Shown piece by piece: positions 17,474 to 34,175 of a stretch of 64,000 nt of DNA. Source of the stretch: a virus; the IMG/VR virus record IMGVR_UViG_3300020182_000010, positions 64,001 to 128,000 of that record. One strand, given 5' to 3'. The position numbers and the translations under genes are program-made. Numbering within the stretch: position 1 is the stretch's first letter; each line of letters starts with the position of its first letter. Under the pieces are notes generated by a model that did not search any database, was not told the origin of the DNA, and saw only the letters and a program-made list of their open reading frames with translations.

Positions 17474-17724
17474 ATATTATCTTGTTGACGTTTCATTTTT
17501 TGCCAACGCTTTCTTCCAGCATCTTTAGCCTTACGTTTTATTTCGCTTGGCTTTACATATTCTTTTCGTGTTCTAATTTCTTGTACTAGTCCTTCTTCGG
17601 TGCATTTCTTTTTAAATCTACGAAATGCTTTTTCAAAGTTTCCATTTTTTACTTCAACAGTCATTCCAGACTTCGCATATCTGTCACTGTCGTTTCCTTT
17701 TACATAGTGATTATTTTTAGTCAT
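17470..17724 (-). CDS. rpsU: Ribosomal protein bS21
   Basis: VEVKNGNFEKAFRRFKKKC..EIRTRKEYVKPSEIKRK. Confidence 0.9.
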   Translation of the reverse strand: MTKNNHYVKGNDSDRYAKSGMTVEVKNGNFEKAFRRFKKKCTEEGLVQEIRTRKEYVKPSEIKRKAKDAGRKRWQKMKRQQDNI

Positions 17725-23709: not shown

Positions 23710-24093
23710 TTACTCTAAACTTCCGTCTTCTCTCATTTGTTTTCTAATTTTAGTGGCACTAATATCATGCATTTCTTTTCCTAAGTCGTGTTCAGTAAAA
23801 GTGTAGCCTACTCCACGTCCATAACTAATATCTACAATATTAGGTACGAGTAATATTACATAATCATGTTCTCTTTTAAATCCTTGTTTGCCTAATTCTA
23901 AACTAATTTTAAACACAATATTTTCAAAATCAAAAGGGTTATCATCTTGTGTTGCTGTGCGTCCAGCACCTGCGTCCTCACCAATAATACCGCCAACATC
24001 ACGTACCATTATGGCAACTTGTCCAGTTTCTTTGTAAGCACGTTTGAATAATTCAGTATGACCATCATGCCAAGGTTGCCATCTTCCTAGCAT
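23710..24093 (-). CDS. HIGH-family nucleotidyltransferase (cytidylyltransferase/ATP-sulfurylase-like)
   Basis: GRWQPWHDGH and ISATKIR; true start may lie about 10 codons upstream. Confidence 0.8.
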   Translation of the reverse strand: MLGRWQPWHDGHTELFKRAYKETGQVAIMVRDVGGIIGEDAGAGRTATQDDNPFDFENIVFKISLELGKQGFKREHDYVILLVPNIVDISYGRGVGYTFTEHDLGKEMHDISATKIRKQMREDGSLE

Positions 24094-24115: not shown

Positions 24116-24541
24116 TCAAATATTATTAATACCCATCCACCGTTGTACTACTGGCATAAGTTGCTGATGTGCATCGTTAAACCATTTCTCAATATGGTAG
24201 TCAACATCTTCAGGAGTTTCGAATAGTTTATTTGTGTCTTCAAATCGTCCTTCTTTGATAGTATCCATCCACACTGTAAAGTCAGCATCAAACTCTAATC
24301 TAGTTATGTAAGTAGGACACACAAAGTCAACAACTGCTACCTTGCCCGCCATGACTACTCCATCTGCTAAATGACGCATACGTTGCGCATGCCTTACACG
24401 CCCTTTTTTAGTAAAGTCCCAATCATCATACTTAGTACGCACCTCGTCTGCATTAATATGTACGCCATCTATTAGTTTAGCAAACGGTTTTGCAAGTGTG
24501 GTTTTGCCACTGCCAGGTAAACCAAATATTAATATTTTCAT
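24116..24541 (-). CDS. Adenylyl-sulfate (APS) kinase-like P-loop kinase
   Basis: GLPGSGKTT, NADEVR..DWDFT..GR, FVCPT, FETPE. Confidence 0.75.
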   Translation of the reverse strand: MKILIFGLPGSGKTTLAKPFAKLIDGVHINADEVRTKYDDWDFTKKGRVRHAQRMRHLADGVVMAGKVAVVDFVCPTYITRLEFDADFTVWMDTIKEGRFEDTNKLFETPEDVDYHIEKWFNDAHQQLMPVVQRWMGINNI

Positions 24542-24682: not shown

Positions 24683-25309
24683 ATGATACAGTATATTCAT
24701 CAATATGGCGATCAAGTAGCACTACAATCAAATCTAAACTGTGATCATTTGTTACAAGAATTAAGTCAGTTTGATGATGAATGGTCACAATATAATGTAT
24801 TAAAACCAACAATTAGACGACAAGGATTATGCGTATTAAATGAACGAGGAAATGTTGGGCCTGGCCCTGCACTTAATTCTCTTAGAGAATGGAATAAAAA
24901 ATACAATACTACTTTTTCTGAATCTGATTTTAATAAGCCTACCGAAGTATATAATAATAGTTTACAACTACAATCTATACTTGGAGAAATTCTTCCATAT
25001 TGTGTTAGAACCCATTTTTTAAGATTGGGACCAGGAGGATTTTTCCCACCACACCGAGATCATATTGGGAAAGAGCAATCTACATTTAGATTAATTGTTC
25101 CGATTAAGGCATTCAATCCACCAGATGCACGATTTATGATAGAAGATAGATCATTGTATTGGGAAGAGGGTAGAATGTATGCAGTAAACACAACCAAAGA
25201 ACACACATTGTTTAATGCTAGTAATCAAGATAGTATCTGGTTAGTAATTAATGCTAAAGTATGCGATGAAACTATTAGATTTGTGTCAAAAAATTTAAAA
25301 AGTAGATAA
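24683..25309 (+). CDS. Asp/Asn beta-hydroxylase-like 2OG-Fe(II) oxygenase
   Basis: GGFFPPHRD..RLIVP..NTTKEHTLFN. Confidence 0.8.
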   Translation: MIQYIHQYGDQVALQSNLNCDHLLQELSQFDDEWSQYNVLKPTIRRQGLCVLNERGNVGPGPALNSLREWNKKYNTTFSESDFNKPTEVYNNSLQLQSILGEILPYCVRTHFLRLGPGGFFPPHRDHIGKEQSTFRLIVPIKAFNPPDARFMIEDRSLYWEEGRMYAVNTTKEHTLFNASNQDSIWLVINAKVCDETIRFVSKNLKSR

Positions 25310-25804
25310 GTTAGATTGATGTAACTCATTAATTGTTTCTACATACGACATACTTATTACTATTCTGTTGTGTGGACTTTTAGAGTTATCTATCCTATGT
25401 GGAATGTCTACTCTCCAGCATTTTGGAGTTTGTAAATCTATAGTTTCTAAAACATTGTTACTTTCCATAGACTCCATATACTGAAATACACTAGTTTCAT
25501 GTACATTAACAGGAATATTAATTGCAGTGATCCGTTGTCTTATACCGCTTGCGTCTGCTTTATCATCAACGTGTGTTGCACATACACTATTTTTTGGTAC
25601 TGTAATAATTGCAGCATAACTAGGAGATATTGGCAGTGCATCAAAAATGTATGATAATTTGCTCATTTCCGATTGTGTCATAAGATGCGGTATTATTGTC
25701 CACGATGCATAAAGTGGGTTAGTTGGATTGTTACTTATATGAGTTATCCATTCTATATCGTCGGGACGAATAGATGGAACGTTTTTAATTTCAAACCATT
25801 TCAT
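25295..25804 (-). CDS. Putative 2OG-Fe(II)/cupin oxygenase
   Basis: HVD..AINIPV..VDIPHRIDN..RIVIS. Confidence 0.7.
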   Translation of the reverse strand: MKWFEIKNVPSIRPDDIEWITHISNNPTNPLYASWTIIPHLMTQSEMSKLSYIFDALPISPSYAAIITVPKNSVCATHVDDKADASGIRQRITAINIPVNVHETSVFQYMESMESNNVLETIDLQTPKCWRVDIPHRIDNSKSPHNRIVISMSYVETINELHQSNLSTF

Positions 25805-26283
25805 TTTTGTATCCTTTGTATATCTCCAATAGCGTCTGGCTCTCGGGTATGAACTGTAATTGCTATTCGTGTATTAGTTAACTCAGTAATATTATGATAT
25901 GTACTTACTGTGATATTATGCCAAACATTGTTTGGAAAGATTTCTCTTTCAATTTCATTTAAATCATCATCATACCATACAGTATTAACATTTCCGCCTG
26001 TATTGATAATGTAATTGTAACAGTTTGTTCTGCCAAAGTCTTTATGTATAGGTAAGTCCTGTGTTATTAATTGGAATGATATATCTACATCATTATCAAA
26101 ATATGGTTGTAAAAACGATTTTATCTCTTGTGGCGCAGTATGCAATGAGTACTTAGGCACTACATTATTTGGAGGTTCTACTCCGCTAAAATCTCTCGGG
26201 ATTTTTCGTATTTCATCTTCTGTGAACTTATCGATGATATCATTTGGAATTTGTGGAATATTCGGACAGTAACGATATAACAT
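25801..26283 (-). CDS. Putative 2OG-Fe(II)/cupin oxygenase
   Basis: PIHKD..YNYII..TYHNI..RIAIT. Confidence 0.7.
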   Translation of the reverse strand: MLYRYCPNIPQIPNDIIDKFTEDEIRKIPRDFSGVEPPNNVVPKYSLHTAPQEIKSFLQPYFDNDVDISFQLITQDLPIHKDFGRTNCYNYIINTGGNVNTVWYDDDLNEIEREIFPNNVWHNITVSTYHNITELTNTRIAITVHTREPDAIGDIQRIQK

Positions 26284-26293
26284 TAATTTACCT

Positions 26294-26893
26294 TTATACT
26301 AAGTGTTGAGTAAGTTCTCTGAAAAACTTCCAATCTGTTTTTTTATTATTAAATTTGAAAATCATTATTGCTCTTTGATGCGATTGTGGCAGTGGATTAA
26401 AAACACTATGCCATTTTTGATTATTAAATAGAACTGGAGTATCAGTTAATGCAAATTCATATGCGTGTGCTAATTCTCCGCTACTATACGCTTCACTTTT
26501 TTTCATTTTCTCGCCTATCACTTCGTCTATAGGTTCCCAGAAACTAGTAGTAATTTGTTCATTGCATCCAAAGACAGGGATATTTATACTACATGGATAA
26601 TTAATATTATCAGGATGATTGTCTCTATGGATAGGAATAAATTGTTTACTTCTGCGTTGGTCATGAAAATATCCAATCCACACACGGTCTATTACCATAT
26701 ATTCGTGTAGTTCCTTTGGTATTAAATGAAGTGCGGAATCTGTCATCGGTTCACTATTTAAAAACACTTGTTTCTTTTCATCATAGTGCTTATGAAATAT
26801 ATGATTTGCGACAGTAGTATCAATATTCAACGGAACAACATAGTCACTAATACTGTATTGAGTGTTATGTGTAATTGATTTCATTAAATCCAA
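26294..26893 (-). CDS. Putative 2OG-Fe(II)/cupin oxygenase
   Basis: PIHRD..SINIPV..KWHSVFN..RAIM. Confidence 0.7.
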   Translation of the reverse strand: MDLMKSITHNTQYSISDYVVPLNIDTTVANHIFHKHYDEKKQVFLNSEPMTDSALHLIPKELHEYMVIDRVWIGYFHDQRRSKQFIPIHRDNHPDNINYPCSINIPVFGCNEQITTSFWEPIDEVIGEKMKKSEAYSSGELAHAYEFALTDTPVLFNNQKWHSVFNPLPQSHQRAIMIFKFNNKKTDWKFFRELTQHLV

Positions 26894-27339
26894 TCCTTCG
26901 GAGTATCAATAATATCTTTTACTATATCTCCACACATCTGATGTGTTTTATAAACTGCCCATTTTTGTTTCTCATTAATAGTTTGCTGCACCAGACTGTT
27001 GAAGTCTACAGTTGATCCAGTAATTTTGTCTAAAGAAGATTTAACATATTTTTGTTCTCGGACGCTGCTAACAATTTTATAATTATTTTTAATAAATTCT
27101 AGTATTTCAGCATCTAGTAAATTCAATGTATGCCAATGGCCATGAAGAATATGTTTTTTATTTAAGACTACTTCTCGTATATTATATTCATTGCCATGTA
27201 AAAATTCAGAGGTATGTAATACCCCCATCGCGGTTGGTTTATTTAACAATGTCGAATAATGTTTTGCTAAACTGCGACTTGCAGTTCTTGGAAAACTGAT
27301 TACCGCTATATTACAAATAGTGTTTGACATATCATACAT
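26884..27339 (-). CDS. Sulfotransferase-like (P-loop) protein
   Basis: N-terminal VISFPRTASRSL resembles the 5'-PSB PAPS-binding loop; short. Confidence 0.45.
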   Translation of the reverse strand: MYDMSNTICNIAVISFPRTASRSLAKHYSTLLNKPTAMGVLHTSEFLHGNEYNIREVVLNKKHILHGHWHTLNLLDAEILEFIKNNYKIVSSVREQKYVKSSLDKITGSTVDFNSLVQQTINEKQKWAVYKTHQMCGDIVKDIIDTPKDWI

Positions 27340-28060
27340 TTCCCGGTGATACGTTGTTTAAAATAAAAGAATCTACCGCATATTTTGCAAAATCTTCTCC
27401 GTAATGAAACGTATGTTTAGTAGAAAAATTGTTATCCTTCGCATAATTAGTATAGGCAAATGGTATGCTATTAAGTTTTAATATGCTTTTAGATTCTAGA
27501 ATCCAAGACAAATCATTCCAATTTGAACTCAACGAATGACTTTTTTCTTCGTCTGTGAGCATGGCATCTTCTATATCTGAAAACATAAACTTGCATGGTA
27601 TGTTTTCATTGTCACAGAATGATTTTAATAATATTATATGTTGAAGTAAATCTGTCTTATCTTGTATTGAATTTTGTATATATTCAAAATACCCAAGTGC
27701 TGCTGCATTGAAACCTCTACCCTGATTTAATTTTTCATACCATAAAGATAGTGTAACTGGGTTATTAAGTGTTTTTAAAAACAATTCACGCCTATGTGAA
27801 TATGTCATCATAAACACTGCGTTGGGTTTCTTGTTTTGTTGAATTAAGTTTTTTATACCGATTATTGCTTTTCGTGTGATTAAATTGTTCGATGCTCCTG
27901 GTCTAGAATCGTTAATGACCGATACCCCCATCTGTTCTCCTAACAAAGCCGGCCACGAAAATTTGCTGGTTTTGAAATTATCGACAAATGTATTACCCAC
28001 ATCATCCATTCCAAATCCTTGTGTATGAGAACAGCCACCTGCATATAAAATATTTTCCAT
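27332..28060 (-). CDS. SGNH/GDSL-like hydrolase or acyltransferase (start re-assigned)
   Basis: GGCSHTQG, SWPALL, NDSRPGASN, C-terminal His. Confidence 0.65.
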   Translation of the reverse strand: MENILYAGGCSHTQGFGMDDVGNTFVDNFKTSKFSWPALLGEQMGVSVINDSRPGASNNLITRKAIIGIKNLIQQNKKPNAVFMMTYSHRRELFLKTLNNPVTLSLWYEKLNQGRGFNAAALGYFEYIQNSIQDKTDLLQHIILLKSFCDNENIPCKFMFSDIEDAMLTDEEKSHSLSSNWNDLSWILESKSILKLNSIPFAYTNYAKDNNFSTKHTFHYGEDFAKYAVDSFILNNVSPGNV

Positions 28061-28653
28061 TAGATATTTATTGTTTTTCGCATATTTTCGCATAGTCTTA
28101 TATCTTTAAGTGGTATGTTTGGAATTTCAAAATGTAAGCACAATCTATTTTCCGTAACATTTTTAACGCCGTGCCGTTTTGTAATGTTTAGAAATGTCGG
28201 AGAAGTTATTTGATACTCTCCGCCATCTTCATAATACGTGATTGATGACGAAATCCCCCACAGAGGTATCATCAGAACCGTATTTTTTCTATATGGAAAA
28301 TCTGAGTGTGTAGGCACATCTTCTCCTGCATGTTGAAGGAAAAATGAAACATCACCAATAACGATGTCGTTGTCAATTTTTTCTGATAACTGTTTTATTA
28401 TATTTGCAATTGTAGGATGAGTAGTGTCACACTTTGAAACAAAATCAGTACGCTTGTGTACTTTTTTTGTAATCGATTTTTTCAAATCTTTAATCGTATT
28501 ACCGATTACGTTTATCCCTGTATTTTTACAGAATTCATCTTTGTGATTAATATCAATATCATCAATATCATATGATCGCAGAGAGTTATAATAAGAAGTT
28601 AATACATCCACATCATAATCTAAATCTATGACTAGTACTTCACGATCATCCAT
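28060..28653 (-). CDS. Putative 2OG-Fe(II)/cupin oxygenase
   Basis: PTHSD..LMIPL..TKRHGVKN..RLCL. Confidence 0.7.
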   Translation of the reverse strand: MDDREVLVIDLDYDVDVLTSYYNSLRSYDIDDIDINHKDEFCKNTGINVIGNTIKDLKKSITKKVHKRTDFVSKCDTTHPTIANIIKQLSEKIDNDIVIGDVSFFLQHAGEDVPTHSDFPYRKNTVLMIPLWGISSSITYYEDGGEYQITSPTFLNITKRHGVKNVTENRLCLHFEIPNIPLKDIRLCENMRKTINI

Positions 28654-28722: not shown

Positions 28723-29400
28723 TTATATTATAAACTGTGTTCGCCATAACATACGTTCACCCTCGAATGCTACTCTTTTATGGATCATTTTTAGATTGTC
28801 CCAGATTAATATCTCGTTATCCTGCCATTCATGCATATATGCATTTGCTTCTACCCATTCTTTAATAGGACGTAAGTCTATTTCATTATTGCGCAATGTG
28901 TTTATACTACAATATAGTATATCTTCACCAGTGACATGATGCTTAATATTAAATGGTCGCTTTATTTTTTGTTTCTCTAGTAATCGTAGTTGTCTATCAG
29001 TAAAACATTCGCCATGCAAATGTATAGGAGGGTAGTATTCACCTATAGAATCTTTATACAGTTCTCTAAGTTCAAGTGGTGCATTACTCATATTACAGAA
29101 CCAAGTTGGTGAAAGATGAGCATTTTTTACATTGTACAATATTGTACCAAAGTAGTTTCCTCTACCATAACTCCAATCATTATGCCAGTCTACATCGCCG
29201 GTATTGAACAATCCATTATTACTTAACTCTTGCACAGTACGATTGTCATTAATCACATGCTTGTCTGTGATTAATGGTTTTCCTAATTCACTGACAATAT
29301 ACTCGAAATCTGTTAATGTTATTGAACTATTTAATGAGACTTTCACAAGACCATTCGTCATAAGATCCTGCTTGATGGTCTCTATATTCAATTGTTTCAT
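28723..29400 (-). CDS. TauD/TfdA-family dioxygenase (canonical HxD)
   Basis: DWHND, TWFCNM, HEWQDNEILIWDNLKMIHKR, RMLWR. Confidence 0.85.
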   Translation of the reverse strand: MKQLNIETIKQDLMTNGLVKVSLNSSITLTDFEYIVSELGKPLITDKHVINDNRTVQELSNNGLFNTGDVDWHNDWSYGRGNYFGTILYNVKNAHLSPTWFCNMSNAPLELRELYKDSIGEYYPPIHLHGECFTDRQLRLLEKQKIKRPFNIKHHVTGEDILYCSINTLRNNEIDLRPIKEWVEANAYMHEWQDNEILIWDNLKMIHKRVAFEGERMLWRTQFII

Positions 29401-30262
29401 CTACCTTTTCCTTTACTTCCTCGTCTCTATACCAAATACCTGCTCTCCACAATTCGCGGTCGCCAGTATATGCTTCTCTTTTATGTAGACTGTGATGTTG
29501 GTCACTAAAACAGATATCATAATTATTCCATTCGTGTTCATACACATATTTTTCATCTTGTGTATGCTTTTTCAGTTTATAATATAAGTTATGCTGTGCA
29601 TCTTTAGAAATTCCACTAAATCCTCGAATAACAGTCCAAGGAAAATATAGGCCTTCCTTATTATTGATAGGGTGAGTTGTGACTAAATCTTTTCTTGGTG
29701 TTTGTTTTTCGAAACTGTTTTGTCCATCTATATCTTTGAACTCCATCATAGTTTGTTCATCACTAAAAATTCTCTTGTAATACATTTGCTCAAGTTTCAA
29801 CTTAGCATTATATGTTACGATTTTAGACTTTATGTTACGAAGAATGTCTTTTGTATTATCATCCAAATCTGCAAAAGCCGTTTGACTATCAGAGAAGAAC
29901 GTATTTCCACCACTCTCTGCATTTTGATGCATGTACATAACTACAACATCATCATGTCCCTTACGATTCATTCCAGCACTATGCCACTCTAATTCACCGT
30001 CTTCTTCACCGCTAAATAATCCATTTTTTCTAACTTTAATAAGTTCGCCATGTCCCGCGACATTTCCTTTGACTTTTGTATTTTGTGATACCACCTCACC
30101 AATTGTTTTATAAAATGATACTAGAGTTTCTGGTGGTACTGGATCATTATTTCTCACTACCACTACACGGCAATCACCTATTAGTTCTCTAATTTTATCT
30201 GCATCGTTTTCATAATCGCATTCAGTCACAATTGCTGCAAATTTATTTTTTTCTACAATCAT
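29327..30262 (-). CDS. TauD/TfdA-fold enzyme with HxA (halogenase-type) iron motif
   Basis: EWHSAG, GGNTFFSD..AFADL, LVTTHP, HEWN..DQHHSLHKR, RELWR. Confidence 0.8.
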   Translation of the reverse strand: MIVEKNKFAAIVTECDYENDADKIRELIGDCRVVVVRNNDPVPPETLVSFYKTIGEVVSQNTKVKGNVAGHGELIKVRKNGLFSGEEDGELEWHSAGMNRKGHDDVVVMYMHQNAESGGNTFFSDSQTAFADLDDNTKDILRNIKSKIVTYNAKLKLEQMYYKRIFSDEQTMMEFKDIDGQNSFEKQTPRKDLVTTHPINNKEGLYFPWTVIRGFSGISKDAQHNLYYKLKKHTQDEKYVYEHEWNNYDICFSDQHHSLHKREAYTGDRELWRAGIWYRDEEVKEKVDETIEYRDHQAGSYDEWSCESLIK

Positions 30263-30815
30263 TTTTCACTCTTTCTAACCCTATATTTATACAGTCTTTC
30301 GTCAATGGAAGCCAAGTTATATTTTGTTCACAACTACTATCTCCGTTGCATACATAAAACTGGTCTGTTTCCATGATCCAGTCTGGCCATTGCATTTTGT
30401 TGTGCAAGAAGTATTTAAATCCATTAATACCGAACTTACCTTCTCTACTCATAAATGCATAATCAAATTTAAGATTGCCAACTAATTCTATCTGCTGTTC
30501 AATCATTTGTTTTGTATATTCAATATCGTTAACCGCAAATCTATAATCCGAAGATTTAATAAATCTATTTAGAACCCTACATCCATTTCCATAAAATTGT
30601 TTTCTATGTAAAACAGAAGAAAACCCCAATATTTTACCAGATTGCGTTTCATACGTTGATGCTCCAACCCAATCATCAATGTTTAACCGCTTCATTGTAT
30701 AATTATATTTTAGATTGTCTTGAAAATTTGATTGTGTAATAAACTGTTTTATGCTTTCAATATATGATTCCCAATTATTATCGGCAGAATTTATTGTTTT
30801 AATAGTTAAATTCAT
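30243..30815 (-). CDS. GNAT-fold-like protein
   Basis: KILGFSSV..RVLNRF..QQIE..YAFMSRE pattern; weak. Confidence 0.45.
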   Translation of the reverse strand: MNLTIKTINSADNNWESYIESIKQFITQSNFQDNLKYNYTMKRLNIDDWVGASTYETQSGKILGFSSVLHRKQFYGNGCRVLNRFIKSSDYRFAVNDIEYTKQMIEQQIELVGNLKFDYAFMSREGKFGINGFKYFLHNKMQWPDWIMETDQFYVCNGDSSCEQNITWLPLTKDCINIGLERVKNDCRKK

Positions 30816-31734
30816 TTTGCTTCACATGTTCAAAGAATGGCGCAATTGTCCAATTCTGAGTCAACCGTCCTCTACTAGTGTTATCATGATCAATAACACC
30901 GTCATCGTCAATTTCCCAATCAATTAATCTTACGTATACTGGTCCTGCTTGTGTTTCATACTCAAACATCCAGGATGAAAGAGTTTCACCACTTTGTGGT
31001 CCTGCCGCAACAACTCCCGCTGCAGTCTTATATATGTCTTTTTCATTAATACCTAGTTGTAATTTTGCTATATCTTTAAGTTCTTGTATATTATATGAAG
31101 AATTTTCCATATATCTACCAATTTGTCCCACACTTTTCATTCGAAGTACGGGACGAATTCTATTATATGGCGGAGTAGTATTAAAATCTATTCCACTATT
31201 GCAGGCTAGTTCACCAAATAATTCTATTTGTCTTTTTAATGTATGTTCGTTTACATTTTTTGCAATGATTGTACCAGTGTTCACTGGCAGTCTCGCATCA
31301 AAAACATTTTTCAATGCTCTAACTTTTACCGTTGACCAATTGCCTTCATCTAATACTTTGTATACATTATCATCATCTGCGCCGTTCATACTAAGCAATA
31401 GTAATCTGAGGCCTGCATCTTTTAGATTGGATGTGTAACTCTTATTTGCTAACTTTAGTCCGTTGGTAGTTAGACTAGGGCGATGTCCTAATCTTTTTGT
31501 AGTTGCAATAATCTCACATATATCCTCTCTCATAGTAGGTTCTGCTCCTATTAATCTGATATAGGTACGAGCAGGTAATCGTTTGATAATGTCAAATAAT
31601 TTATTTTTATCAATATCTGGAATATCACGATTTGGAATATAACAGTTAGCACACTCCATGTTACATCGATGAGTTAGATCAACTACAATGTTACTGAATG
31701 TATTATTTTCTGGTTCTAATTCGTAATAATTCAT
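30799..31734 (-). CDS. Radical SAM enzyme (MoaA/NifB/PqqE-like core)
   Basis: LTHRCNMECANCY (CxxxCxxC), GAEPT, TTNG. Confidence 0.9.
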   Translation of the reverse strand: MNYYELEPENNTFSNIVVDLTHRCNMECANCYIPNRDIPDIDKNKLFDIIKRLPARTYIRLIGAEPTMREDICEIIATTKRLGHRPSLTTNGLKLANKSYTSNLKDAGLRLLLLSMNGADDDNVYKVLDEGNWSTVKVRALKNVFDARLPVNTGTIIAKNVNEHTLKRQIELFGELACNSGIDFNTTPPYNRIRPVLRMKSVGQIGRYMENSSYNIQELKDIAKLQLGINEKDIYKTAAGVVAAGPQSGETLSSWMFEYETQAGPVYVRLIDWEIDDDGVIDHDNTSRGRLTQNWTIAPFFEHVKQNEFNY

Positions 31735-32526: not shown

Positions 32527-32555
32527 ATTGTTCTCCTTTGTGTGTGTGTGTTGTG

Positions 32556-32820
32556 TAACTATTCTGTTGCTAGGTCAGTTACCAACCCCCACGTGCTTAA
32601 ATTAAGCCGCTAATGCCATTTCTGGCGCATAATTGTTATTTGCAATTATAAAGTTTATTCGCGGTAACGGCGCTTATATCCCGGTAACTCCATTCATCTA
32701 TCTTGTCAGTCGATCCTATTTCAGCCCCATAAGAAACACACTTATCTAAATGTGCTTATGGTGGAGCTGCGCGGTACTGCCCCACGGTCCTGTCCAATCA
32801 TCAAATCACTTCAACGTTAC
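32556..32820 (-). ncRNA. ssrA: Circularly permuted two-piece tmRNA (alphaproteobacterial type); outer ends approximate
   Basis: T-arm CGTGG-GGCAGTA-CCGCG + CAGCTCCACCA (CCA ends 32759) precede a 30-nt intervening hairpin and GGGGCTGAAATAGGATCGAC (starts 32728); G3-U pair; tag ORF 32643-32602 ANNNYAPEMALAA*. Confidence 0.93.
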
Positions 32821-32824
32821 ATTC

Positions 32825-32855
32825 TATTTATAACATATTTTGATAGTGTTGTCAA
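32825..32855 (-). promoter_or_regulatory. Overlapping sigma70 (TTGACA-N17-TATAAA) and late (TATAAATA) promoter of tmRNA
   Basis: Both motifs visible immediately upstream of the tmRNA. Confidence 0.65.
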
Positions 32856-33430
32856 GTGTTGAATTTATTTTTAATAATTTCAACTACTCTGTCAGATAGA
32901 ACTATCTCATAATGGTTTCTATCTACTTCTGCATATTCTATATCATTACGACAAGTCATACTTTTACGTGTGACAATGCCATCATTTTCACCTGATATCC
33001 ATGGTACATCGCCAACTGTTGTGACTACCTGAAGCCAATTACACGAAATATCAATATTACGACTACCTCTGATAAATCTACTATGTGTTGTAATGTCACT
33101 AAACATTTCATATCCAGAAAAGAATTTCATTGTTGCTCCCCAAACCGCAATCTCACTGCCATTAAATGGTGTTGCTAAACTAACAACATTTTTTATTGTA
33201 TCAAATTCACTTTGTAAATATGTTGCATATACACCACCAAGACTATGTGCTATTACAAAAAATTCATCATCTATATCATTCAAAGTTTTCATCATTATAG
33301 CAAGATTATCAACTGCCGCTGTATGTTTACTATAATTTAAATATATAGGATCTTTACAATCCAAAGATTTCTGAATGAAGGCGAAACTTCTTTCACTAGC
33401 AGTTGCCCCATGTATATACACTATTCTCAT
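32852..33430 (-). CDS. Alpha/beta hydrolase (esterase/lipase)
   Basis: YIHG, IAHSLGG, LATPFNGS, NDGIV, NHYE. Confidence 0.85.
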   Translation of the reverse strand: MRIVYIHGATASERSFAFIQKSLDCKDPIYLNYSKHTAAVDNLAIMMKTLNDIDDEFFVIAHSLGGVYATYLQSEFDTIKNVVSLATPFNGSEIAVWGATMKFFSGYEMFSDITTHSRFIRGSRNIDISCNWLQVVTTVGDVPWISGENDGIVTRKSMTCRNDIEYAEVDRNHYEIVLSDRVVEIIKNKFNT

Positions 33431-33434
33431 TCAT

Positions 33435-34130
33435 TCAAGTCCTGACGCTGTTGTGCTTGCGATCCATAAACATCTTTGCTGTTTCAACTGCTACTGCTGC
33501 ATCTCTACAATACGCATCTGCACCAATTGCTTTTCCAAATTCTTCATTTAGTGGTGCGCCGCCTACTAGTATTGTATAATCATCACGCATACCTTTTTCA
33601 ATCATTACATCAATAACAACCTTCATATATGGCATTGTTGTTGTAAGTAATGCACTCATACCTAATATATCTGGATTATGTTCTTCGATTGCATCAAGAT
33701 AAGCCTGAACATCGTTATTAATACCAATATCGTGTACATCAAATCCTGCACCTTCCATCATCATGCCAACTAAGTTCTTACCAATGTCATGTATATCACC
33801 TTTAACTGTGCCGATAACCATAGTTCCAACTTGTGGTGCGCCTGTTTCCGCAAGTAGAGGTTTAAGAATTGACATACCGCCTTTCATAGCGTTTGCTGCC
33901 AGTAGCACTTCAGGCACAAACAATATGCCATCTCTGAAGTCGATGCCAACAATTGTCATACCAGCAACTAAAGATTCTGTTAGTACACGATATGGTTCCC
34001 ATCCTCGCTCTAATAGAATATTTGTGCCTTCTTCTACCTCTTCTTTTAGACCATCATACAAATCATCGCCCATTTGAATTACTAATTCTTCATCATTTAA
34101 TTCAGAGAGTACAATATTATCATCTTCCAT
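33435..34130 (-). CDS. Stand-alone cobalamin-binding (corrinoid) protein, split methionine-synthase type
   Basis: FVPEVLLAANAMK cap domain; GTVKGDIHDIGKNLV (DxHxxG), SALLTTT, VGGAP. Confidence 0.92.
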   Translation of the reverse strand: MEDDNIVLSELNDEELVIQMGDDLYDGLKEEVEEGTNILLERGWEPYRVLTESLVAGMTIVGIDFRDGILFVPEVLLAANAMKGGMSILKPLLAETGAPQVGTMVIGTVKGDIHDIGKNLVGMMMEGAGFDVHDIGINNDVQAYLDAIEEHNPDILGMSALLTTTMPYMKVVIDVMIEKGMRDDYTILVGGAPLNEEFGKAIGADAYCRDAAVAVETAKMFMDRKHNSVRT

Positions 34131-34175
34131 TATTCTTCTCACTTGTATAGGTTAACATATCTATTTATAAGCAAT

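What the first reader, a model, noticed from the sequence alone, without database searches (positions are those of the whole stretch)
29327..30262. TauD-fold enzyme with an HxA iron site: candidate phage-encoded Fe(II)/2OG halogenase
Seen: the TauD motif WHxD reads WHSAG here (His 29981-29983, Ala 29975-29977). The distal His (HSLHKR) and the Arg of RELWR are retained, and the adjacent paralogue (28723-29400) has the canonical WHND. Known: replacing the carboxylate ligand with Ala/Gly opens a halide site in 2OG-dependent radical halogenases (SyrB2 HxA; WelO5, BesD, AdeV HxG). Inference: a marine phage may halogenate a metabolite, nucleotide or protein, paired with a hydroxylase twin.
Basis: partly seen in the sequence, partly recalled or inferred. 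Interest (0 to 1): 0.85.

Follow-up and report, generated by a model that had tools for sequence, protein, structure and literature searches.

The report
Phage TauD enzyme lacking iron carboxylate
A group of uncultured marine phages carries a TauD-type iron enzyme in which the usual acidic iron-binding residue is always alanine, the hallmark of radical halogenases, so it is a good but untested candidate for the first viral enzyme of that kind.

Summary
ORF 29327-30262 (-) is a 311-aa TauD/TfdA-family protein (Pfam 109 bits). Its iron motif reads W93-H94-S95-A96. The distal His260, the 2OG residues Thr121 and Arg269, and Arg273 are intact.

Ala96 is not a one-off:
- It is invariant in 73 homologue clusters down to about 50% identity.
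- It is encoded by GCA, GCT and GCC in different loci.
- It defines a well-supported clade found only on viral or uncultured contigs.
- The adjacent paralogue always keeps HxD.

In about 18 loci the gene sits in a conserved cassette: radical SAM, GNAT-fold protein, TauD(HxA), TauD(HxD).

The halogenase reading is plausible but unproven. The clade lies inside a TauD subfamily where the same position is mostly Asn and switches repeatedly with Asp. AspH shows that a two-His site can hydroxylate. I could not inspect model coordinates for a substitute carboxylate such as Asp104. No known halogenase is detectably related.

My odds are halogenase about 0.42 and two-His oxygenase about 0.35. It is not a taurine dioxygenase. 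First readers of this scan flagged the same motif in at least four other phage genomes.

The parts
29327..30262 (-). TauD/TfdA-fold Fe(II)/2OG enzyme with an HxA iron motif (311 aa). The last ~26 residues are poorly conserved and modelled at low confidence.
   Evidence: Pfam PF02668 E 5e-31, 109 bits. AF2 model pLDDT 87.5. Foldseek hits TauD, RdpA/AAD, AtsK and PlaO1 at E ~1e-17.
29975..29983 (-). Codons for His94-Ser95-Ala96. This is the proximal His, with Ala at the facial-triad carboxylate position.
   Evidence: H94 and A96 are invariant in alignment A1.
29900..29902 (-). Thr121, the 2OG-binding Thr of the GGxT motif.
   Evidence: Invariant in A1. 96-98% Thr in all three groups. Equivalence to TauD Thr126 rests on motif spacing and my own knowledge.
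29483..29485 (-). His260, the distal iron ligand.
   Evidence: Aligned to the distal His of TfdA/RdpA. 100% His in all groups.
29444..29458 (-). Arg269 to Arg273 (RELWR): the 2OG C5-carboxylate Arg and the family's substrate-anion Arg.
   Evidence: Both are 100% Arg in the HxA clade.
29951..29953 (-). Asp104, acidic in every HxA lineage. It is a candidate substitute carboxylate that could not be checked in 3D.
   Evidence: Acidic in 14/14 HxA clusters, 27/61 HxN and 10/44 HxD/E. No coupling in phylogenetically independent pairs.
28723..29400 (-). Canonical paralogue, TauD(HxD), 225 aa, with WHND and IHKR. It overlaps the upstream gene by 74 nt.
   Evidence: Pfam TauD E 8e-15. WH[NH]D in every locus that has it.
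30243..30815 (-). GNAT-fold protein (190 aa), a conserved cassette partner.
   Evidence: No Pfam hit. AF2 pLDDT 88. Foldseek top hits are all GNAT acetyltransferases, TM 0.5-0.6. Present in 18 loci.
30799..31734 (-). Radical SAM enzyme (311 aa, CxxxCxxC, no auxiliary-cluster cysteines). It is the most conserved cassette member.
   Evidence: Pfam Radical_SAM E 1e-14. Weak matches to TrsS, MoaA, Tes and PqqE, all below cut-offs. 50-73% identity in 18 loci.
25295..28653 (-). Accessory island genes (197, 253, 151, 199, 160 and 169 aa). The 197-, 151-, 199- and 169-aa families recur next to the cassette in other phages; the 253- and 160-aa ORFs did not recur.
   Evidence: tblastn synteny and clustering. 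No significant Pfam or NCBIfam hits.
24683..25309 (+). AspH-like hydroxylase, convergent with the island.
   Evidence: Pfam Asp_Arg_Hydrox E 2e-7. A separate AspH-like ORF family, not clustered with this ORF, lies next to the cassette in 9 other loci.

Best explanation
The gene encodes a catalytically competent Fe(II)/2-oxoglutarate enzyme of the TauD/TfdA fold. Its iron is held by only two protein ligands, His94 and His260, because the facial-triad carboxylate is a strictly conserved alanine. 2OG would bind through Thr121 and Arg269, as in TauD. The freed coordination site is most likely filled by a halide, since chloride and bromide are plentiful in the sea. After O2 activation, a halo-ferryl species would abstract hydrogen from an unactivated carbon and return the halogen. 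The substrate is probably an anionic or zwitterionic small molecule, because the family's substrate-anion Arg273 is kept. It would be made or handled by the co-inherited radical SAM enzyme and GNAT-fold transferase, and further hydroxylated by the canonical HxD twin. Shown here: family and fold, motif, conservation, virus-only distribution and cassette synteny. Inferred: metal and 2OG binding, halide binding, the reaction and the substrate.
For: It is TauD family by Pfam and by fold. The alignment to solved TfdA/RdpA structures places A96 on the Asp ligand, with both His and both Arg retained. A96 and H94 are invariant in 73 clusters at 50-100% identity. Ala is encoded by GCA (8), GCT (7) and GCC (2) in distinct loci, although Asp or Glu is one mutation away. 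The HxA clade has support 100 in the tree. The deeper lineages P0074-P0083 keep Ala while the flanking residues vary. The gene and its twin hold HxA and HxD respectively in every locus, so these are two differentiated functions rather than decay. The cassette radical SAM - GNAT - HxA - HxD is conserved in ~18 viral loci. The literature uses HXG/A as the defining criterion for mining these halogenases, and independent families have evolved it (PMC11186838; PMC8407142).
Against: There is no biochemical evidence. No known halogenase is detectably related by sequence or among the top fold matches. The clade sits inside a subfamily where the same position is mostly Asn and switches with Asp many times, so this lineage may simply tolerate a missing carboxylate while remaining an oxygenase. 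AspH is a natural two-His 2OG hydroxylase (PMC10947486; PMC13168262). Asp104 is acidic in every HxA lineage, and its distance to the metal could not be measured. One clade member has Glu (P0087) and one has Cys (P0076).
Confidence: 0.42

Rival explanations
1. It is a two-His Fe/2OG oxygenase (a hydroxylase or another oxidative tailoring enzyme). Water fills the vacant site, as in AspH, and halide plays no role.
For: AspH works this way (PMC10947486; PMC13168262). In the enclosing subfamily the carboxylate position is Asn in 59 of 103 tree rows. The tree needs 15-16 changes each for the Asn and Asp states, and 7-9 of them are forced by well-supported branches. This shows that relatives function without a charged ligand. 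Cellular relatives carry HxN or HxD.
Against: If the position were merely relaxed, the phage clade should also vary among N, D, G and S. It does not: Ala is fixed through synonymous changes, even where neighbouring residues differ. A canonical HxD paralogue is kept alongside it.
Confidence: 0.35
2. The third ligand is supplied from elsewhere. Either a relocated protein carboxylate (Asp104/Asp105) or a carboxylate, phosphate or similar group of the bound substrate completes an ordinary oxygenase site.
For: Position 104 is Asp or Glu in 14/14 HxA clusters, including the second small HxA clade, against 44% of HxN and 23% of HxD/E sequences. It replaces the PP motif of TauD/RdpA at the same spacing from the His (the TauD sequence is from my own knowledge). 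Many clade-specific basic residues (R100, K191, R213, R262) suggest a strongly anionic substrate.
Against: In phylogenetically independent pairs that differ at position 96, acidity at 104 or 105 does not change, so the raw correlation is mostly shared ancestry. P0087, which has Glu at 96, also keeps Asp104. There is no geometric evidence.
Confidence: 0.13
3. It is a non-catalytic paralogue, for example a regulatory or scaffolding partner of the HxD twin that no longer binds iron productively.
For: Loss of a metal ligand is a common route to pseudoenzymes. The gene is always next to an intact paralogue.
Against: Both His, Thr121, Arg269 and Arg273 are at or near 100% conserved. The protein is more conserved than would be expected for a decaying copy. 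Some loci carry it without the twin (L024, L026, L028, L054).
Confidence: 0.05

Closest known systems
TauD / TfdA / RdpA (AAD) group of Fe(II)/2OG dioxygenases (PF02668)
   Same: Same Pfam family and fold. The proximal and distal His, the GGxT Thr and both C-terminal Arg sit at the same spacing.
   Different: Ala replaces the Asp ligand. Identity is only 15-19%. It scores 28 bits against the taurine dioxygenase equivalog cut-off of 313. The genomic context is a radical SAM/GNAT cassette, not a sulfonate or herbicide catabolic operon.
SyrB2-type Fe/2OG halogenases (HxA) and the WelO5, BesD and AdaV families (HxG)
   Same: Carboxylate replaced by a small non-coordinating residue that is conserved across orthologues. 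Both His and the 2OG site are retained. BesD likewise works beside an Fe/2OG hydroxylase, BesE (my own knowledge).
   Different: No detectable sequence relationship, and none appears among the top fold matches. No carrier protein is nearby. The host is a virus. Activity is untested.
AspH (aspartate/asparagine beta-hydroxylase)
   Same: A natural 2OG oxygenase with only two His ligands (PMC10947486).
   Different: Different family (PF05118, against PF02668 here). It acts on a protein substrate and has Gly rather than Ala (my own knowledge).
VirX1, cyanophage flavin-dependent halogenase
   Same: A marine phage-encoded halogenase, described as the first halogenase characterised from a virus (PMC8407142).
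   Different: It is flavin-dependent and halogenates aromatic rings electrophilically. Fold and mechanism are unrelated.
Uncharacterised HxN TauD subfamily (e.g. Bdellovibrionales MAG protein MCB0365587.1)
   Same: These are the nearest cellular relatives (about 23-33% identity). They also lack the carboxylate, and the one locus examined (L006) sits next to a B12-binding radical SAM gene.
   Different: They have Asn, which could still ligate iron, rather than Ala. The flanking genes in L006 are not homologous to the phage cassette partners.

Membership tests
TauD/TfdA family (PF02668) Fe(II)/2OG oxygenase fold | Match to the family HMM above the gathering score | tested here: met
   109 bits against a cut-off of 27, residues 19-274
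TauD/TfdA family (PF02668) Fe(II)/2OG oxygenase fold | Double-stranded beta-helix fold like the solved members | tested here: met
   AF2 pLDDT 87.5. Foldseek E 7e-18 to 1e-15 against TauD, RdpA, AtsK and PlaO1, TM 0.64-0.82
TauD/TfdA family (PF02668) Fe(II)/2OG oxygenase fold | [quoted passage not shown] | tested here: not met
   Both His are present. The carboxylate position is Ala96, invariant in the clade
TauD/TfdA family (PF02668) Fe(II)/2OG oxygenase fold | 2OG-binding Thr and Arg | tested here: met
   T121 and R269 conserved
Taurine dioxygenase proper (the usual 'tauD' AMG annotation) | Equivalog-level similarity to TauD | tested here: not met
   NCBIfam PRK09553 scores 28 bits against a cut-off of 313
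Taurine dioxygenase proper (the usual 'tauD' AMG annotation) | Sulfonate-utilisation gene context | tested here: not met
   The neighbours are radical SAM, GNAT-fold, a second TauD and small unknown proteins in ~18 loci
Fe(II)/2OG radical halogenases (functional class) | Carboxylate ligand replaced by Ala or Gly, conserved among orthologues | tested here: met
   HxA in all clade members except P0087 (Glu) and P0076 (Cys); three synonymous Ala codons
Fe(II)/2OG radical halogenases (functional class) | No other protein carboxylate reaches the iron, so the coordination site is open | tested here: inconclusive
   No model coordinates were available. Asp104 is a sequence-level candidate but shows no independent coupling
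Fe(II)/2OG radical halogenases (functional class) | Homology to a characterised halogenase family (SyrB2, WelO5/DAH, BesD, AdaV) | tested here: not met
   None among the PDB sequence hits up to E = 10 or the top Foldseek hits
Fe(II)/2OG radical halogenases (functional class) | Halide-dependent turnover and a halogenated product | not testable with these tools
   Needs enzymology and mass spectrometry
Two-His 2OG hydroxylases (AspH type) | Iron held by two His only, with hydroxylase activity | tested here: inconclusive
   A two-His site is predicted from sequence. Activity is unknown, and it is not homologous to AspH (Pfam PF02668, not PF05118)

The most novel reading that the evidence does not exclude
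This is a fifth, independently evolved lineage of Fe(II)/2OG radical halogenases. It would be the first in the TauD/TfdA fold and the first encoded by viruses. It would be widespread in uncultured marine myophage-like phages of alphaproteobacteria (SAR11-type hosts) and would act with a radical SAM enzyme, a GNAT transferase and a hydroxylase twin to make a chlorinated or brominated metabolite, or a modified macromolecule, during infection.
Probability: 0.4. Interest if true: 0.85.

Novelty: new variant of a known kind. Interest (0 to 1): 0.68.

Why it matters
If it is a halogenase, it would add a new scaffold for C-H halogenation. It would also show that abundant ocean phages carry out radical halogen chemistry during infection. 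VirX1, described as the first halogenase characterised from a virus, is flavin-dependent (PMC8407142).

Whatever the chemistry, the result corrects an annotation habit. Viral 'tauD' genes are routinely counted as sulfur-starvation auxiliary metabolic genes (PMC8940887, PMC9469726). This clade lacks the TauD iron ligand, scores far below the taurine dioxygenase equivalog, and belongs to a radical SAM tailoring cassette.

The work also exposes a large uncharacterised TauD subfamily with Asn at the ligand position. That raises a separate question about how these enzymes bind iron.

Tried and rejected
- **Cultured phages.** tblastn of the protein against 50,697 GenBank phage records, and megablast of 20 kb around it, found nothing. 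The radical SAM partner hit only two Enterococcus phages at 27% identity. No cultured phage is available for testing.
- **PHROGs.** No family matched either TauD gene.
- **Bdellovibrionales HxN locus.** Its flanking genes of similar size (310, 175 and 197 aa) are not homologous to the phage cassette partners.
- **Locus L054.** The 189-aa gene upstream of the HxA gene is unrelated to the GNAT partner.
- **Sugar-nucleotide neighbours.** The HAD, NTP-transferase and carbamoyltransferase genes seen in some loci are absent from this record, so a sugar-nucleotide pathway reading is not general.
- **Compensatory carboxylate.** The raw association at position 104 did not survive the independent-pairs test.
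- **T4-type late promoter TATAAATA.** There are 10 copies against 12.5 expected. The copy 22 nt upstream of the HxA start lies in the conserved coding end of the GNAT gene. It is therefore not evidence of separate regulation.
- **Literature.** Searches found no paper describing a TauD-family or viral Fe/2OG halogenase, or an HxN TauD enzyme.
- **Atlas and NCBIfam.** Neither gave a function for the radical SAM or GNAT partners.
- **Not run.** No complex prediction was run, because no binding claim is made.

Full report
**What is there.** The window is part of a 155-kb IMG/VR virus record that CheckV estimates to be 42% complete. It encodes a DnaB-like helicase and virion proteins and ribosomal protein S21. 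An alphaproteobacterial-type permuted tmRNA lies just upstream of the island studied here. These features fit the pelagimyophage-like phages described in PMC7029224, which also reports radical SAM cassettes in such genomes. ORF 29327-30262 on the minus strand gives a 311-aa protein. It matches Pfam TauD (PF02668) at 109 bits against a cut-off of 27. An AlphaFold2 model built on 73 homologues has mean pLDDT 87.5; only the last 26 residues are disordered. The model matches TauD, RdpA/AAD, AtsK and PlaO1 structures at E about 1e-17.

**The motif.** HMMER alignments to solved TfdA-type and RdpA-type enzymes place His94 on the proximal iron ligand and Ala96 on the Asp ligand. His260 falls on the distal ligand, and Arg269 and Arg273 on the two conserved family arginines. 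Thr121 sits in the GGxT motif. The neighbouring gene 28723-29400 is a shorter TauD paralogue with WHND and IHKR.

**Is Ala a one-off?** No.
- A search of 5.8 billion clustered proteins returned 73 clusters at 50-100% identity. H94 and A96 are invariant in all of them.
- In 17 distinct DNA loci Ala is encoded by GCA (8), GCT (7) or GCC (2). Asp or Glu would be a single transversion away.
- A profile search of 1.84 billion representatives, followed by alignment to the profile, shows that the nearest further clusters (P0074-P0083) also carry Ala. In these the residues after it (GMNR in the core clade) vary freely.
- In a FastTree of 129 sequences the HxA sequences form a clade with support 100: 19 Ala, one Cys (P0076) and one Glu (P0087).
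- A scan of one genome for each of 185,579 prokaryotic species found no relative above 29% identity. Those relatives carry HxD or HxN, never HxA.
- Every contig of the clade whose gene context I examined carries phage genes such as ThyX, DnaB, RNaseH, RNR and cell-wall hydrolase.

**The cassette.** tblastn of the window's island proteins against 25 IMG/VR loci and several ENA loci, together with clustering of all ORFs, shows a conserved core in about 18 distinct loci down to about 49% identity. The core is radical SAM (311 aa), a 190-aa protein, TauD(HxA) and TauD(HxD).
- The 190-aa protein has no Pfam hit. It folds confidently (pLDDT 88), and its top structural neighbours are all GNAT acetyltransferases.
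- The radical SAM enzyme is the most conserved member. It has the CxxxCxxC motif and no auxiliary-cluster cysteines. It reaches only sub-threshold similarity to TrsS, MoaA, Tes, PqqE and BlsE.
- In every locus the first TauD gene reads WH[S/C/N]A and the second reads WH[N/H]D. The two paralogues therefore hold distinct, stable states.
- Variable accessory genes include an AspH-like hydroxylase, several small unknown proteins and, in some phages, HAD, NTP-transferase and carbamoyltransferase genes. The last three are absent here.

**What complicates the halogenase reading.**
- The HxA clade lies inside a subfamily of 103 tree rows in which the ligand position is Asn in 59 and Asp in 17. The tree needs about 15 Asn changes and 16 Asp changes, and at least 7-9 of these are forced by well-supported branches. 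A more distant outgroup of 26 rows is almost entirely HxD. Relatives of this enzyme evidently work without a charged third ligand.
- One HxN protein, in a Bdellovibrionales MAG, also lies beside a B12-binding radical SAM gene. The HxE member of the Ala clade (P0087) lies among about eight radical SAM genes. The link to radical SAM chemistry is therefore older than the Ala state.
- AspH is a natural 2OG hydroxylase with only two His ligands (PMC10947486, PMC13168262).
- Position 104 is acidic in 14/14 HxA clusters against 44% of HxN and 23% of HxD/E sequences. This could mean a relocated carboxylate. However, the association disappears in phylogenetically independent pairs. I had no access to model coordinates to measure distances.
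- No characterised halogenase is detectably related by sequence or among the top fold matches. Membership of the known halogenase families is excluded, and only the functional analogy remains.

**Weighing it.** The Ala is rigidly fixed through synonymous change, in a lineage whose relatives switch freely between Asn and Asp. A canonical twin is maintained next to it. Both points argue that Ala marks a distinct chemistry rather than relaxed constraint. The HXG/A motif is the criterion the field uses to find these enzymes, and it has arisen independently in several families (PMC11186838, PMC8407142). I therefore rank radical halogenation first at about 0.42. A halide-independent two-His oxygenase follows at about 0.35, a ligand supplied from elsewhere at about 0.13, and a non-catalytic paralogue at about 0.05. 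The substrate is unknown. Retention of the family's anion-binding Arg273, of Glu90 (at the position of a substrate-amine contact in TauD, from my own knowledge) and of a GNAT partner suggests an amino-acid-like or other anionic amine, but this is speculation.

**What it is not.** It is not a taurine dioxygenase. It scores 28 bits against the equivalog cut-off of 313, lacks the Asp ligand, and has no sulfonate-utilisation context. Viral 'tauD' counts used as sulfur auxiliary metabolic genes (PMC8940887, PMC9469726) may include this clade.

**Novelty.** Searches of 8.4 million papers and preprints found no TauD-family or virus-encoded Fe/2OG halogenase, and no description of the HxN subfamily. 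VirX1, described as the first halogenase characterised from a virus, is flavin-dependent. First-reader notes of this scan flag the same HxA/HxD pair in at least four other phage genomes and an HxN TauD beside a B12 radical SAM gene in another. Those notes are unchecked, but they agree with my locus survey.

Noticed in passing
window 32552-32859 (-): Phage-encoded alphaproteobacterial-type, circularly permuted tmRNA (Rfam alpha_tmRNA 126 bits; tmRNA_permuted 113 bits), immediately upstream of the island. It points to an alphaproteobacterial host.
   Followed up: partly
window 17506-17661 (-) (G000:C1:81506-81661): Ribosomal protein S21 gene in the phage record (Pfam 56.5 bits). PMC7029224 lists S21 among proteins core to pelagimyophages.
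   Followed up: no
proteins P0082-P0215; locus L006:8001-8945: A large uncharacterised TauD subfamily with Asn at the carboxylate-ligand position (WHxNG), switching repeatedly with Asp. Members occur in Bdellovibrionales, Thermodesulfobacteriota, Binatia and other MAGs. The one locus examined (L006) lies next to a B12-binding radical SAM gene.
   Followed up: partly
L033:83-12930: The only Glu-bearing member of the HxA clade (P0087) lies in a dense cluster of about eight radical SAM genes, plus an AMP-binding enzyme and a 2OG-FeII_Oxy gene.
   Followed up: no
L024:4375-6151: One viral contig carries two tandem HxA copies (both WHNA) and no HxD twin.
   Followed up: no
window 33435-34142 (-): Stand-alone cobalamin-binding protein (B12-binding plus B12-binding_2 domains) close to the island.
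   Followed up: no
window 29327-29400: The HxA gene and its twin overlap by 74 nt. The overlapping C-terminal tail of the HxA protein (residues 286-311) is unconserved and modelled at pLDDT below 50. Many homologues end about 20-40 residues earlier.
   Followed up: partly
window, whole: All 10 copies of TATAAATA lie on the minus (coding) strand, although the count (10 against 12.5 expected) is not enriched. Copies sit upstream of the ORF starts at 1964, 24541, 32070 and 34142.
   Followed up: partly
window 24116-24541 and 23710-24093 (-): A small P-loop kinase (APS-kinase-like, E 8e-7) and a weak cytidylyltransferase-like ORF lie at the edge of the island. Both recur in L016.
   Followed up: no
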